Below are positions 48,785-56,275 of a DNA stretch of 64,000 nucleotides, in pieces. The translations under genes were made by a program, and so were the position numbers. Position 1 is the first letter of the stretch, and each line of letters begins with the position of its first letter. Source of the DNA: Escherichia coli (GTDB taxonomy: Bacteria > Pseudomonadota > Gammaproteobacteria > Enterobacterales > Enterobacteriaceae); assembly GCF_009931435.1 (NCBI RefSeq), contig NZ_CP043414.1; one strand, written 5' to 3'. Below the pieces are notes generated by a model that worked only from the letters and a program-made list of their open reading frames with translations, did no database searches and had not been told where the DNA came from.

Positions 48785-49669
48785 TCAATCATGTATTTTT
48801 ACAGCAAGACAACCACGAACAAACTCAGGATTAAAATGTTTTACCGATTCCCCAACATAACCCAAATCAAGCGAACTAATTTGCGCCATTTCTTTCTCTG
48901 TCAGTGAGAAATCCCAGATAGCAAAATTTTCTTCGATACGCTGTTGATGTGTCGATTTCGGAATAACGACCACTCCCCGTTGAATATTCCAACGCAGAAT
49001 GACCTGAGAAATCGATTTTTGATGGGCATCTGCAATATTCTGAAGCAGACTATTTTCAAAGGTTTTATGTCTTCCACCGCCTAACGGAGCCCATGCTTCA
49101 GGCTGCACGTTATAATACTTCATGGTTGCCAGCGCCTCTGGTTGGGCAAAATAGGGATGCAACTCGACCTGGTTGACCATCGGTTTAACTCTTACCGTCT
49201 CACAAAAGTTCGCCAGAACATGAGGGTAGAAATTGGAAACCCCAATCGCTTTTAATTTTCCCTCTTCATAGGCATCTTCGAGTGCACGCCACGCACTAAA
49301 ATAATCGCGCATGGCCTGGTGTAATAAATAGAGATCGAAGTATTCCAGTCCCGATTTTTTTAATGATGCTTCAATACCTGCTGCTGCAATATCCTGATTC
49401 AACATATCCTGCACCCACAATTTAGACGTTATAAATAACTCTTCTCGGGTACATAAACCTTCAGATATGGCTTCACGAACGGCTTCACCGACGGCATCTT
49501 CATTACCGTATACCGCTGCAGTGTCGATGAGTCGATAACCCGTGCGGATAGCATTCAACACTGACTGTTTGCACACGTCTTTATCGGTAACCTGAAAAAC
49601 ACCAAATCCCATCATCGGCATTTTCAGATTGTTACTTAATACGGAAAATTCCACTGTCAGTCCCTCCAT
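48785..49669 (-). CDS. Aldo-keto reductase (AKR family)
   Basis: 294 aa with AKR motifs ([28 protein letters not shown]...ISQVILRW). Confidence 0.8.
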   Translation of the reverse strand: MEGLTVEFSVLSNNLKMPMMGFGVFQVTDKDVCKQSVLNAIRTGYRLIDTAAVYGNEDAVGEAVREAISEGLCTREELFITSKLWVQDMLNQDIAAAGIEASLKKSGLEYFDLYLLHQAMRDYFSAWRALEDAYEEGKLKAIGVSNFYPHVLANFCETVRVKPMVNQVELHPYFAQPEALATMKYYNVQPEAWAPLGGGRHKTFENSLLQNIADAHQKSISQVILRWNIQRGVVVIPKSTHQQRIEENFAIWDFSLTEKEMAQISSLDLGYVGESVKHFNPEFVRGCLAVKIHD

Positions 49670-49869
49670 TAGGTATGAACAATGAGTCTACGTTAAAACG
49701 TAACCTCAAATTAGTATGTGGATTTTGATATCACTTATGCAAAAAATTCATTAATAATGTAGGACTGAAACCTCTCTATTTTCGGGGACAACGAAGCAGA
49801 CGCTACCAGTGCTTTTGCCTTCGCCCTTGCTGTTTTTGATACACTTAGGGCCCAGGGCATAACGAAAAT

Positions 49870-50760
49870 GTGCGATATGACAAAGAATTAACGGAGAATG
49901 TGATGATCAGGCAGAAGATTCTACAGCAGCTCCTGGAGTGGATTGAGTGCAATCTTGAGCACCCTATTTCAATCGAAGATATCGCACAGAAATCTGGCTA
50001 CAGCAGACGCAACATCCAGCTTCTGTTCCGAAATTTCATGCATGTGCCTTTGGGAGAATACATTCGCAAACGAAGGCTTTGTCGCGCCGCCATTCTTGTC
50101 CGGCTCACCGCGAAATCTATGCTTGATATTGCACTCTCTTTGCATTTTGATTCACAGCAGTCATTCAGCCGCGAATTTAAAAAGTTATTCGGCTGCTCTC
50201 CCCGTGAATACCGCCACCGTGATTATTGGGATCTCGCAAATATCTTCCCTTCTTTTTTAATACGTCAACAGCAAAAGACGGAGTGTAGATTAGTCAACTT
50301 TCCTGAGACGCCTATTTTTGGCAATTCATTTAAATATGATATTGAAGTGTCGAATAAATCACCGGATGAAGAAGTCAAACTGCGACGTCATCATTTAGCC
50401 AGATGTATGAAGAATTTTAAGACGGATATCTATTTCGTCTCCACGTTCGAACCGTCAACAAAATCGGTCGATTTGCTCACAGTTGAAACTTTTGCCGGTA
50501 CGGTATGCAAACAAACCGATTCAGAGATGTCGAAAGAGTGGACAATTAACCGAGGACTGTATGCCTCTTTCCGCTATGAAGGTGAGTGGGAGCACTACCC
50601 TGAATGGGCGCGAAACCTCTATCTGATGGAATTACCTGCCAGGGGGTTAGCCAGAGTGAACGGCAGTGATATTGAGCGATTTTATTACAATGAAGATTTC
50701 GTAGAAAAGGATAGCAATGATGTTGTTTGCGAAATATTTATCCCTGTTCGTCCGGTTTAG
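49870..50760 (+). CDS. AraC/XylS-family regulator with N-terminal HTH and C-terminal GyrI-like domain (Rob-like; YkgA-like)
   Basis: 296 aa; N-terminal dual HTH (ISIEDIAQKSGYSRRNIQLLF, DSQQSFSREFKKLFG). Confidence 0.72.
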   Translation: MRYDKELTENVMIRQKILQQLLEWIECNLEHPISIEDIAQKSGYSRRNIQLLFRNFMHVPLGEYIRKRRLCRAAILVRLTAKSMLDIALSLHFDSQQSFSREFKKLFGCSPREYRHRDYWDLANIFPSFLIRQQQKTECRLVNFPETPIFGNSFKYDIEVSNKSPDEEVKLRRHHLARCMKNFKTDIYFVSTFEPSTKSVDLLTVETFAGTVCKQTDSEMSKEWTINRGLYASFRYEGEWEHYPEWARNLYLMELPARGLARVNGSDIERFYYNEDFVEKDSNDVVCEIFIPVRPV

Positions 50761-55134: not shown

Positions 55135-55699
55135 TGAGATAATTTCCTGATGAACGAATTAACGAACATAGGCAGACACAAATAATGGTGTCTGCTTGTC
55201 AGAAAAACCGGGGATTTCCCGGTTTCCTTTTCCGCAGAAAAGGAAATACCTTTATGTAAGAAAGTACACCGCCACCTAATATATCCAGTGCCTGTAGCCA
55301 CTCATCAGGTGGTTGGGCGCGGGATTATATTTTTATTTATGGGTGAGAATTTAGCTTTTTGTGCAAACCATTAAATAGATACCTAAGTTATATTTCTTAC
55401 TCTGCGGACAGTGAATAATTCATTATTCAGAGTGAATAATAATGACCTACCTTTAATTAGCAACTATCGGAAATACGTCGAAGTAGGTATATACGCCAGG
55501 ATAAACCGATATATTTTTTATGGATATTCATTTTCCTTCATCAGACTGTGAATTGCAGGGATATCGAACTTGCACGACTCATCGCAACACTCAAACAGAT
55601 TTATGAATTTCGTTCATAACCCCTGACAAATCCTGCCGTCTAATCGCGTGACTCCCTTTACGTTATGCTTCTCATGAACGATAACGAAAGGATAACACC

Positions 55700-56275
55700 A
55701 TGCAAAAAGTAAAACTGAACAACGGTATTGAAATGCCCCTGTTGGGCTTTGGTGTATTTCAGATGACCGATGCCGCCGAATGCGAAAGAGCGGTCATTGA
55801 CGCTATTAACAGCGGTTATCGACTGATTGACACCGCCGCCTCTTATCAAAATGAAATCCAGGTCGGGAACGCACTGAAACAAAGCGGTATCGCCCGTAAC
55901 GAACTCTTTGTCACCACGAAACTCTGGTTGCAGGATACCAGTTACGAAGGGGCCAAAGCCCAGTTCGAACGCTCTCTGAATCGACTGCAACTTGATTACG
56001 TTGACCTGTACTTGATTCACCAGCCATATGGCGATGTCCACGGAGCCTGGCGTGCCATGGAAGAGCTGCAACAGGCCGGTAAAATTCGCGCTATTGGCGT
56101 AAGTAACTTCCATCCTGACCGACTGGCTGACCTTATCGCCTTTAATAACGTCGTTCCGGCGGTAAACCAGGTTGAAGTTAACCCTTTCAATCAGCAGCTA
56201 CAGGCCGTTCCCTGGATGCAAAGTCGTGGCATTCAGCCAGAAGCCTGGGCACCGTTTGCGGTTACAGGGCGGTAA
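55700..56275 (+). pseudogene. Truncated aldo-keto reductase paralogue (191 aa, lacks about 85 C-terminal residues)
   Basis: Aligns by eye with the N-terminal two-thirds of the AKR at 48785..49669 ([13 protein letters not shown]...IGVSNF...PEAWAPF) then stops; no AKR-like continuation in any frame downstream. Confidence 0.5.

What the first reader, a model, noticed from the sequence alone, without database searches (positions are those of the whole stretch)
48785..56275. Intact fdeC/eaeH adhesin module bracketed by two diverged aldo-keto reductase genes, one truncated
The invasin-like gene is a single uninterrupted 1417-codon ORF, whereas it is disrupted in K-12 as I recall. A Rob-like AraC regulator lies just downstream of its stop, on the opposite strand. 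The module is flanked in inverted orientation by a full-length AKR (48785..49669) and a paralogous AKR that ends after 191 aa (55700..56275). The truncated copy suggests an old rearrangement or insertion event at this locus.
Basis: partly seen in the sequence, partly recalled or inferred. Interest (0 to 1): 0.45.

Follow-up and report, generated by a model that had tools for sequence, protein, structure and literature searches.

The report
Known fdeC locus with decayed reductase
This is the well-known, variable E. coli fdeC adhesin locus in the form carried by the O157:H7 lineage and its relatives: the short reductase gene is a dead remnant left when 2.3 kb of a neighbouring gene cassette was swapped for 0.7 kb of foreign DNA, which is ordinary and already annotated.

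Summary

The 191-aa AKR is a truncation, not a short family. It covers positions 3-193 of the 291-position Pfam AKR model, and its relatives across Enterobacterales are 283 aa.

The breakpoint is at 56261|56262. Here 2,278 bp (the AKR 3' end, a second AKR and a LysR regulator) were replaced by 677 bp of foreign DNA that carries a 118-aa orphan secreted protein. The intact cassette occurs in 1,886 of 5,426 complete E. coli genomes and in Escherichia whittamii, so it is ancestral. The truncated form occurs in 315 genomes, mostly O157:H7 and O55:H7. RefSeq already marks it as a pseudogene, and Nesta et al. 2012 drew this locus with its truncated genes.

An intact fdeC is the norm (about 83% of genomes); K-12 is the exception.

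The AKRs are only neighbours. The unit conserved across genera is ykgA + fdeC + about 240 bp upstream of fdeC.

That upstream stretch is the one less ordinary thing. It holds an invariant marbox-like element, a TATAAT, and a structured leader of about 183 nt that pairs with the ribosome-binding site and the start codon. This could relate to the reported temperature control of FdeC.

The parts
48785..49669 (-). AKR-A: a full-length DkgA-like aldo-keto reductase (294-aa ORF; RefSeq start gives 289 aa). It is the left neighbour of the module.
   Evidence: ORF. (NCBIfam DkgA profile positions 9-263 of 275, below the equivalog cut-off). (annotated 'aldo/keto reductase' in near-identical genomes). 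Mostly deleted in K-12.
49903..50760 (+). ykgA: a Rob-like AraC-family regulator (N-terminal double HTH plus a GyrI-like domain), convergent with fdeC.
   Evidence: RobA profile 3-286 of 286, 196 bits against a cut-off of 380. (Pfam PF12833/PF00165/PF06445 in relatives). (aligns with Rob structures 1D5Y/7VWY over residues 5-283). Recognition helix 3 reads SRRNIQLLF where Rob, SoxS and RamA read SKW(H/Y)LQR(M/L)F.
50881..55134 (-). fdeC (eaeH): an intact 1417-aa inverse-autotransporter adhesin.
   Evidence: single ORF. (residues 595-1008 match the FdeC crystal fragment 4E9L, E = 1e-245; the beta-domain matches invasin and intimin, 4E1T/4E1S). (92% identical to the FdeC of a strain carrying the intact cassette). 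(RefSeq 'fdeC').
55135..55370 (-). Conserved fdeC control region. On the - strand it holds a marbox-like element at 55367..55349, a TATAAT at 55329..55324, and a leader of about 183 nt. Leader helices: H1 55245..55224; H2 55223..55207 followed by a U-run; 55206..55199 paired with the Shine-Dalgarno 55150..55143; H3 55195..55172; CAU 55256..55254 paired with the AUG 55134..55132.
   Evidence: invariant in E. coli, E. whittamii, two further Escherichia lineages, a Salmonella genome and locus L027. (MFE -63.6 against -44.2 +/- 4.3 for shuffles, z = -4.5). (four pairs with compensatory changes; 0 of 500 shuffles reach that). (no Rfam family).
55700..56261 (+). AKR-B remnant: codons 1-187 of a 283-aa aldo-keto reductase. 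The ORF runs on through four foreign codons (VTGR) to a stop at 56275.
   Evidence: Pfam PF00248 positions 3-193 of 291. (DkgA profile 6-193 of 275). (RefSeq: 'incomplete; missing C-terminus'). (the full-length allele matches the solved structure 4MHB over all 283 residues). (no non-synonymous difference from an intact allele).
56262..56938 (.). A 677-bp foreign segment that replaces 2,278 bp of the ancestral locus (the AKR-B 3' end, the 329-aa AKR-C, and the 297-aa LysR-1 with 48 bp upstream of its start).
   Evidence: alignments with strain MS20658 and with E. whittamii both stop at 56261 and resume at 56939/56941. (present in 315 of 5,426 genomes at 99% identity or more, always at this locus). 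(56284..56822 is 75% identical to a Siccibacter locus; 56855..56940 is 84% identical to a mobile-element-rich region next to IS3 in strain PCN061).
56468..56824 (+). A 118-aa orphan gene with an apparent signal peptide and two invariant cysteines; predicted to be all-beta.
   Evidence: 17 clusters, about 80% identical, in Siccibacter, Enterobacter, Klebsiella and Cronobacter. (lies beside integrase-, P4-like- or prophage-type genes). (Pantoea megaplasmids, 55%). (no NCBIfam family; best PHROG E = 0.017). (pLDDT 88; best PDB match E = 1.9e-3, TM 0.40).
57113..58039 (-). LysR-2, the first intact gene to the right of the replacement. It is divergent from the alpha/beta hydrolase and flavin oxidoreductase genes.

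Best explanation
The window carries the ordinary chromosomal fdeC (eaeH) region of E. coli, in the structural variant typical of the O157:H7/O55:H7 lineage and a few related strains.

Ancestral order (shown): AKR-A, ykgA, fdeC, then a three-gene cassette (AKR-B of 283 aa, AKR-C of 329 aa, and a convergent LysR regulator of 297 aa), then LysR-2, a hydrolase and a flavin oxidoreductase.

The event (shown): in one ancestor, 2,278 bp running from codon 188 of AKR-B to 48 bp upstream of the LysR-1 start codon were replaced by 677 bp of foreign DNA that carries a small orphan gene.

Origin of the foreign DNA (inferred): it is probably the residue of a mobile element that inserted here and was then mostly deleted.

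Fate of the remnant (inferred): the remaining 187 codons read into four foreign codons and a stop. The remnant lacks the last quarter of the (alpha/beta)8 barrel, including the KS..R..EN cofactor-binding segment, and its operon partner and regulator are gone. It is therefore a non-functional pseudogene.

Later history (inferred): the junction arose once. Afterwards, homologous recombination with strains carrying the intact cassette replaced sequence to the left of the junction, with the recombination tracts ending at the edge of homology.

The two AKRs are unrelated neighbours of the module. The unit that travels between genera is ykgA + fdeC + the fdeC control region.
For: Breakpoints:
- Alignment with strain MS20658 and with E. 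whittamii stops at 56261 and resumes at 56939/56941.

Truncation:
- The remnant covers Pfam model positions 3-193 of 291 and DkgA profile positions 6-193 of 275.
- Of the 120 best homologues listed, most are 283 aa, including those at 90-94% identity in Dickeya, Serratia, Pantoea, Erwinia and Klebsiella.
- The solved structure 4MHB matches all 283 residues of the intact allele.

Polarity:
- The intact cassette is in 1,886 of 5,426 E. coli genomes and in E. whittamii.
- The same cassette, with the same gene lengths and spacing, occurs in Klebsiella. AKR-B plus the LysR gene occurs in Dickeya.

Distribution of the truncated form:
- 315 genomes, with the insert at 99% identity or more.
- RefSeq flags the remnant as incomplete.

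Foreign origin:
- Relatives of the orphan gene lie beside integrase-, P4-like- or prophage-type genes in other genera.

Mosaic history:
- Window against O157: 42 differences in 55021..56260, continuing to 1 bp before the junction, against 3 differences inside the 677 bp and few up to about 58500.
- Two remnant haplotypes share one junction.
- The window's remnant differs from an intact allele by 3 synonymous codons only.

The AKRs are not part of the module:
-.

Prior description:
- Nesta et al. 2012, PMC3324786.
Against: - No repeats or microhomology of note were found at the junctions, so the mechanism of the replacement is not shown.
- The 22 bp at 56262..56283 have no identified source.
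- The mobile-element origin rests on the genomic context of homologues that are only 75-84% identical in DNA, not on any element found at this site.
- Divergence changes within 1 bp of the junction. That requires recombination tracts to end exactly at the homology border. This is plausible but was not demonstrated here.
- Loss of function of the 191-aa product is inferred from fold knowledge, not measured.
Confidence: 0.9

Rival explanations
1. The 191-aa protein is a naturally short, conserved AKR-like family, and the gene is functional as it stands.
For: The ORF is open, and its first 187 codons show no non-synonymous change against an intact allele. It is retained in 315 genomes.
Against: - It matches only the first two-thirds of the Pfam and NCBIfam models.
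- Homologues across Enterobacterales are 283 aa, and a near-identical 283-aa structure is solved.
- Its last four codons come from the foreign segment.
- The lack of amino-acid change is explained by recent import of the left flank from an intact allele.
Confidence: 0.02
2. The two inverted AKR genes are the ends of a composite unit that mobilised or inverted the fdeC-ykgA segment. In other words, the bracket is mechanistically meaningful.
For: The two genes are inverted with respect to each other and flank exactly the segment that is homologous to the Salmonella ykgA-fdeC pair (window 49894..55370).
Against: - Nucleotide identity is 56% and the longest exact match is 11 nt, too little for homologous recombination.
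- AKR-B sits in its own conserved cassette in Klebsiella and Dickeya, with no fdeC nearby.
- The Salmonella and L027 copies of ykgA-fdeC have no AKR neighbours.
- The same orientation holds in every arrangement inspected: E. whittamii and six annotated E. coli loci, with the inversion never seen.
Confidence: 0.03
3. The identical junction arose more than once, through a site-specific process that targets this position in AKR-B.
For: Two clearly different haplotypes abut the same junction, and divergence switches within 1 bp of it.
Against: - The 677-bp segment and the right flank are nearly identical in all carriers (99.6-100%).
- There is no recombinase gene, attachment-like repeat or target duplication at the site.
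- A single origin followed by recombination up to the homology border explains the pattern more simply.
Confidence: 0.04

Closest known systems
The fdeC (ECOK1_0290 / eaeH) locus of E. coli as described by Nesta et al. 2012 (mBio; PMC3324786)
   Same: [quoted passage not shown] That corresponds to ykgA, LysR-1 and LysR-2, plus AKR-A, AKR-B, AKR-C, the hydrolase and the flavin oxidoreductase. The paper describes K-12 fdeC as a pseudogene, and its figure legend says truncated genes are drawn in light colours.
   Different: Nothing essential differs. This window is the variant that has lost AKR-C and LysR-1 and keeps a truncated AKR-B. The exact breakpoints and the origin of the replacing DNA are worked out here. 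I did not see them in the text of that paper, and its figures are not held.
The E. coli O157:H7 RefSeq annotation of the same locus (for example NZ_CP133126.1, RB262_RS21975-RS22000)
   Same: The gene order and both junctions are identical. AKR-B is annotated 'incomplete; missing C-terminus', followed by hypothetical protein WP_001038968.1.
   Different: The window differs by about 3.4% to the left of the junction (55021..56260) and by 0.4-0.8% to the right. Its closest complete genome in the collection is strain 2020CK-00188, at 98.9% over 15 kb.
DkgA-type aldo-keto reductases (2,5-diketo-D-gluconate reductase A; PDB 1MZR, 1A80; closest structure 4MHB)
   Same: Both AKRs match the DkgA profile best. 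The intact AKR-B allele aligns with 4MHB over all 283 residues.
   Different: Neither reaches the NCBIfam equivalog cut-off (261 and 235 bits against 425), so they are DkgA-like rather than DkgA. The window copy of AKR-B lacks profile positions 194-275.
Rob (right origin-binding protein) of the MarA/SoxS/Rob family
   Same: YkgA has the same two-domain architecture and aligns with Rob end to end. Helix 6 (FDSQQ.F.R.FKK) is conserved.
   Different: The score is below the RobA cut-off (196 against 380 bits). In recognition helix 3, YkgA has R and L where Rob, SoxS and RamA all have W and R. From memory, these are the base-contacting residues in the MarA and Rob DNA complexes. No target or ligand of YkgA is known.
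Class II marbox promoters and RNA leaders that hide the ribosome-binding site (for example fourU thermometers)
   Same: A forward-oriented marbox-like element is centred near -41 of a TATAAT, which falls in the class II window defined in PMC12052159. A U-rich stretch pairs with the AGGA of the Shine-Dalgarno sequence.
   Different: The transcription start is not mapped and no binding has been tested. The predicted helix stays closed from 37 to 50 C in silico, unlike a simple thermometer. No Rfam family matches.

Membership tests
Aldo-keto reductase superfamily (Pfam PF00248), complete enzyme | Full (alpha/beta)8 barrel, meaning a match over essentially the whole profile (about 275-291 positions) | tested here: not met
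   AKR-B (55700..56275) covers PF00248 positions 3-193 of 291 and DkgA profile positions 6-193 of 275. AKR-A covers 9-263 of 275 and does meet this feature.
Aldo-keto reductase superfamily (Pfam PF00248), complete enzyme | Catalytic tetrad Asp-Tyr-Lys-His in the N-terminal two-thirds of the protein | tested here: met
   Read directly from the translation of AKR-B: D44 and Y49 in DTAASY, K74 in TTKLW, H107 in LIHQP. Their role as the tetrad is assigned from general knowledge of the family, not from a test done here.
Aldo-keto reductase superfamily (Pfam PF00248), complete enzyme | C-terminal NADPH-binding segment (the KS..R..EN motif after strand 8) | tested here: not met
   The intact allele has LAKSVRKERMEEN at residues 226-238 (alignment). 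The window ORF ends at residue 191.
DkgA (NCBIfam NF008598, equivalog) | Whole-protein score at or above the curated cut-off of 425 bits | tested here: not met
   AKR-A scores 235.4 bits, truncated AKR-B 188.4 bits and intact AKR-B 261.6 bits.
FdeC / inverse autotransporter adhesins | N-terminal inverse-autotransporter beta-barrel followed by tandem Ig-like (Big_1 / Invasin_D3) domains | tested here: met
   The beta-domain matches the invasin and intimin barrel structures 4E1T and 4E1S at residues 113-357. The E. whittamii orthologue has precomputed IAT_beta + Big_1/Invasin_D3 hits.
FdeC / inverse autotransporter adhesins | Orthology to the characterised FdeC (ECOK1_0290) | tested here: met
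   Residues 595-1008 match the FdeC crystal fragment 4E9L at E = 1e-245. The protein is 92% identical over 1415 aa to the RefSeq-annotated FdeC of strain MS20658. No NCBIfam equivalog model reached its cut-off.
Rob / RobA (NCBIfam NF012228, equivalog) | AraC-type double HTH plus a GyrI-like domain over the full length | tested here: met
   The profile is matched at positions 3-286 of 286. Relatives carry PF12833/PF00165/PF06445. YkgA aligns with Rob structure 1D5Y over residues 6-283.
Rob / RobA (NCBIfam NF012228, equivalog) | Score at or above the curated cut-off (380 bits), that is, being Rob itself | tested here: not met
   196.2 bits. YkgA is Rob-like, not Rob.
MarA/SoxS/Rob-type marbox readers | Conserved Trp and Arg in recognition helix 3 (SKW.LQR) | tested here: not met
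   YkgA has SRRNIQLLF where Rob, SoxS and RamA have SKW(H/Y)LQR(M/L)F.
Class II marbox promoter | Forward-oriented marbox centred between -36 and -55 of a transcription start (definition in PMC12052159) | tested here: inconclusive
   A 1-mismatch marbox at 55367..55349 lies 19 nt upstream of a TATAAT at 55329..55324. The start site is only inferred from the -10 element. Marbox matches across the whole window are not above chance (23 against 17.6 +/- 4.5).
RNA thermometer (fourU type) | A Shine-Dalgarno-sequestering helix that melts within the physiological temperature range | tested here: inconclusive
   The sequestering helix is predicted and is invariant in 12 sequences. However, the predicted unpaired probability of the Shine-Dalgarno sequence rises only from 0.24 at 37 C to 0.27 at 42 C. 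An experiment is needed.

The most novel reading that the evidence does not exclude
fdeC, ykgA and the roughly 240 bp upstream of fdeC form one self-contained regulatory module that moves between enterobacterial genera.

Within it, the invariant marbox-like element plus TATAAT would be an activator-dependent promoter. It would be read either by YkgA or by MarA/SoxS/Rob. The invariant structured leader, which pairs with both the Shine-Dalgarno sequence and the AUG and contains a terminator-like hairpin, would be the undescribed cis-element behind the published switch-on of FdeC at 39-42 C.
Probability: 0.3. Interest if true: 0.45.

Novelty: already known. Interest (0 to 1): 0.15.

Why it matters
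The finding itself matters little. An intact fdeC is the usual state in E. coli, the truncated reductase is already flagged as a pseudogene, and the variable make-up of this locus was published in 2012.

The work here adds three details:
- the exact breakpoints;
- the direction of the change (cassette loss, not gain);
- the fact that the reductases are bystanders.

The part that could matter is the control region. FdeC is a vaccine candidate whose expression is tightly restricted. The literature reports only H-NS repression and dependence on temperature and pH. A conserved promoter element, a structured leader and a co-inherited Rob-like regulator give three concrete, testable handles on that regulation.

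Tried and rejected
- **YkgA as a partner of the divergent AKR-A.** I first supposed YkgA regulated AKR-A rather than fdeC. I rejected this as the main reading because orthologues at 65-67% identity sit next to an inverse-autotransporter gene, without any AKR, in a Salmonella genome and in L027. More distant homologues (47% or less) are not next to such adhesins. One 65% homologue (L034) sits among IS elements with no adhesin.
- **Repeats or microhomology at the two junctions.** Nothing convincing was found.
- **Family assignment of the 118-aa orphan.** No NCBIfam family, only weak PHROG hits, no phage hits, and no significant PDB fold match.
- **Rfam scans of the region.** Nothing at gathering level, and nothing credible at relaxed thresholds.
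- **Generic promoter and terminator scans of 55100..57200.** Not above chance.
- **Independent frameshift alleles of AKR-B (P0018, P0019, P0021).** One source genome has frameshifts in every gene of the locus, so it is probably a sequencing artefact. A second contig shows a one-base loss in an A-run (GGGAAAAATGG to GGGAAAATGG). I left this undecided.
- **Wider sampling of the leader.** A species-wide scan with the leader 23-mer returned only three Escherichia loci, so covariation rests on 12 sequences.
- **In-silico melting of the leader.** It did not show a sharp 37-42 C transition.
- **Easton et al. 2014 (PMC4249167).** The paper could not be read.
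Full report
**1. The observation**

| Gene | Coordinates (strand) | Length |
|---|---|---|
| AKR-A (full-length reductase) | 48785..49669 (-) | 294 aa |
| ykgA (AraC-type regulator) | 49870..50760 (+); RefSeq start 49903 | 296 aa ORF (285 aa from 49903) |
| fdeC | 50881..55134 (-) | 1417 codons, uninterrupted |
| AKR-B (short reductase) | 55700..56275 (+) | 191 aa |

- The two reductases are 49% identical over 187 aa.
- The regulator matches the NCBIfam RobA model over its whole length but below the cut-off. It also aligns end to end with the Rob crystal structures. 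'Rob-like' is therefore a fair description.
- It is convergent with fdeC and ends 120 bp from the fdeC stop codon.
- The large protein is FdeC. Residues 595-1008 match the published FdeC crystal fragment 4E9L at E = 1e-245. The barrel matches the invasin and intimin barrels. The protein is 92% identical to the RefSeq-annotated FdeC of strain MS20658.

**2. What the short reductase is**

It is a truncation.
- It covers Pfam PF00248 positions 3-193 of 291 and DkgA profile positions 6-193 of 275.
- In a database search its close relatives are almost all 283 aa. This includes proteins 90-94% identical in Dickeya, Serratia, Pantoea, Erwinia, Tatumella and Klebsiella.
- The intact E. coli allele aligns with the solved structure 4MHB over all 283 residues.
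- The remnant keeps the residues that the family uses for catalysis (D44, Y49, K74, H107; assigned from general knowledge of the family). It lacks the last quarter of the barrel and the LAKSVRKERMEEN cofactor-binding segment seen in the intact allele.
- RefSeq already marks this gene 'incomplete; missing C-terminus' in every genome with this arrangement that I inspected.

**3. The event**

Alignment of the window with a strain that has the full locus (MS20658, L002) is continuous from 46300 to 56261 and again from 56939 onward.
- Between those points the reference has 2,278 bp: the last 290 bp of AKR-B, a 329-aa second reductase (AKR-C), a convergent 297-aa LysR regulator, and 48 bp upstream of that regulator's start.
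- The window instead has 677 bp (56262..56938) of about 39% G+C.
- The ORF reads four codons (VTGR) into this segment and stops.
- No repeats or microhomology of note lie at either junction.

**4. Polarity and distribution**

Counts are out of 5,426 complete E. coli genomes.

| Arrangement | Genomes |
|---|---|
| Full three-gene cassette (e.g. Nissle 1917, ST131, LF82, 042, the type strain) | 1,886 |
| The 677-bp segment, always at this locus and at 99% identity or more | 315 |
| fdeC upstream region present but no AKR-B DNA (all 16 sampled rows have the K-12-type left endpoint at 55685) | about 2,800 |

- The 315 carriers of the 677-bp segment are mostly O157:H7 and O55:H7, plus at least eight other strains.
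- Escherichia whittamii is 88-91% identical in DNA and was identified by 98.9% identity to L031. It has AKR-A, ykgA, fdeC, AKR-B (283 aa), AKR-C (329 aa) and LysR (297 aa). Its alignment with the window breaks at the same two points.
- The AKR-B/AKR-C/LysR unit recurs in Klebsiella with the same gene lengths and spacing. AKR-B plus LysR recurs in Dickeya. Neither has fdeC or AKR-A nearby.
- The cassette is therefore ancestral and the window shows its loss.

**5. Where the 677 bp came from**

- It encodes a 118-aa protein with an apparent signal peptide and two invariant cysteines.
- There are only 17 homologous clusters, about 80% identical, in Siccibacter, Enterobacter, Klebsiella and Cronobacter. 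Copies at 55% identity lie on Pantoea megaplasmids.
- In Siccibacter the gene lies next to P4-like genes (Ogr/Delta, primase). In Enterobacter asburiae it lies next to an integrase-bearing island or a prophage tail module.
- DNA similarity to the Siccibacter locus (75%) begins 22 bp inside the left junction. The last 84 bp resemble (84%) a stretch next to IS3 in a mobile-element-rich region of strain PCN061.
- I infer that the segment is the residue of a mobile element whose insertion and later deletion took the cassette with it. This step is inferred, not shown.
- The orphan folds confidently as an all-beta protein (pLDDT 88) with no significant match among solved structures.

**6. A mosaic around one junction**

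- Between the window and O157:H7 there are 42 differences in 55021..56260, and they continue to 1 bp before the junction.
- There are only 3 differences in the 677 bp and few up to about 58500.
- Among seven carriers, two distinct remnant haplotypes abut the same junction.
- The window's remnant differs from the intact MS20658 allele by only three synonymous codons.
- The simplest reading is a single origin, followed by import of left-flank DNA from cassette-bearing strains, with recombination tracts ending at the edge of homology.
- Recurrent site-specific formation cannot be fully excluded but has no support. There is no recombinase and no attachment-like repeat.

**7. The 'bracket' and the real module**

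- The two AKR genes share 56% nucleotide identity and no exact match longer than 11 nt. They cannot act as recombination arms.
- A Salmonella enterica genome carries a YkgA orthologue (67% identical) convergent with a 1414-aa FdeC-like gene. It sits between unrelated genes. DNA similarity to the window covers exactly 49894..55370.
- Another genome (L027) again pairs a 65% YkgA orthologue with an inverse-autotransporter gene.
- The unit conserved across genera is therefore ykgA + fdeC + about 240 bp upstream of fdeC. The AKRs are merely its neighbours in Escherichia.
- DNA covering at least 80% of the AKR-A-to-fdeC stretch is present in 4,488 of 5,426 genomes, about 83%. An fdeC-bearing locus is the norm.

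**8. Prior knowledge**

Nesta et al. [quoted passage not shown] They described the K-12 pseudogene, and their figure legend says truncated genes are drawn in light colours. That inventory matches the full arrangement found here. The finding is therefore already known in substance.

**9. Noticed while testing the regulator idea**

The 285 nt upstream of fdeC are more conserved than the genes. Mean column identity is 82% across E. coli, E. whittamii, the Salmonella genome and L027, against 71% for the locus as a whole.

Elements on the - strand:
- An invariant TTTGCACAAAAAGCTAAAT at 55367..55349, with one mismatch to the marbox consensus.
- 19 nt downstream of it, an invariant TATAAT at 55329..55324 with no recognisable -35 element.
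- With a start about 7 nt after the -10, the element is centred near -41. That is the forward, class II position as defined in PMC12052159.

The predicted leader of about 183 nt:
- It folds far better than shuffled sequence (-63.6 against -44.2 +/- 4.3 kcal/mol, z = -4.5).
- The RNAalifold consensus on 12 distinct sequences has three hairpins. One (H2) is followed by a U-run, like a terminator.
- That U-run pairs with UCAGGAAA, which contains the Shine-Dalgarno sequence.
- A CAU pairs with the start codon.
- Four pairs show compensatory changes, against 1.1 expected; 0 of 500 shuffles reach four, and slid controls give 0-1.
- The helices that hide the Shine-Dalgarno sequence and the AUG are invariant, so covariation cannot test them.
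- No Rfam family matches.

Published context:
- FdeC is detected only at 39 C or above in EHEC and is induced at 42 C in APEC. H-NS is the only regulator the papers read here name, from the title of Easton et al. 2014, cited in PMC11143625.
- No held paper links fdeC to an RNA thermometer.

Two cautions:
- Nearest-neighbour modelling predicts no sharp opening between 37 and 42 C.
- In recognition helix 3, YkgA lacks the Trp and Arg that Rob, SoxS and RamA share. YkgA may therefore not read a canonical marbox, and MarA/SoxS/Rob themselves are equally good candidates.

**10. Verdict**

- The feature is ordinary and already described and annotated.
- The only part with some novelty is the conserved fdeC control region. 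It is a lead, not a result.

Noticed in passing
window 55135..55370 (- strand): The fdeC upstream region is more conserved across genera than the coding genes. It holds an invariant marbox-like element (55367..55349), a TATAAT (55329..55324), and a structured leader of about 183 nt. The leader's U-run (55206..55199) pairs with the Shine-Dalgarno sequence (55150..55143), and a CAU pairs with the AUG. Four base pairs show compensatory changes. No Rfam family matches.
   Followed up: partly
window 56468..56824 (+): A 118-aa orphan secreted protein (WP_001038968.1 in O157:H7) with two invariant cysteines and a confident all-beta predicted fold that has no significant structural match. It is sporadic in Siccibacter, Enterobacter, Klebsiella, Cronobacter and Pantoea megaplasmids, usually beside integrase or prophage genes.
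   Followed up: partly
L002 9401..12192; L012 7001..9796; L014 7001..8859: AKR-B (283 aa) is 90-94% identical in protein across distant Enterobacterales and even an Aeromonas. It travels with a convergent 297-aa LysR gene, with or without the 329-aa AKR-C, in unrelated genomic contexts. This pattern suggests a horizontally mobile, strongly constrained cassette of unknown substrate.
   Followed up: partly
window 48914..49638, 50564..54258 and 55686..60339, compared with K-12 locus L003: K-12 differs from this window by three separate losses: most of AKR-A; the 3' parts of ykgA and fdeC (replaced by IS3); and everything from just upstream of AKR-B to near the 3' end of the flavin oxidoreductase. 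From memory, the leftover fragments are the K-12 pseudogenes ykgQ and ykgP.
   Followed up: partly
window 51100..53500 (within fdeC): Nucleotide differences from the two closest genomes are concentrated in the Ig-repeat part of fdeC (up to 38 per 300 bp) and change abruptly from block to block. This indicates mosaic recombination within the adhesin gene.
   Followed up: no
window 55412..55429 (+ strand): A perfect 8-bp inverted repeat, TGAATAAT-TC-ATTATTCA, with a further GTGAATAATAATGA just downstream. It lies in the fdeC/AKR-B intergenic region. It is conserved in Escherichia but lies outside the stretch shared with Salmonella. It may be a regulator binding site; this was not tested.
   Followed up: no
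L022 471..1298 and proteins P0018, P0019, P0021: Some E. coli assemblies carry AKR-B alleles with a one-base loss in an A-run just after the codon where the window's break lies (GGGAAAAATGG to GGGAAAATGG). At least one source genome has frameshifts throughout the locus, so some of these may be sequencing artefacts.
   Followed up: partly
L016 (E. whittamii) against window 44950..48790: In E. whittamii, AKR-A directly follows ykgE/F/G. The rclR-rclABC reactive-chlorine genes that separate them in E. coli are absent from that locus. LysR-2, the hydrolase and the flavin oxidoreductase are also missing there.
   Followed up: no
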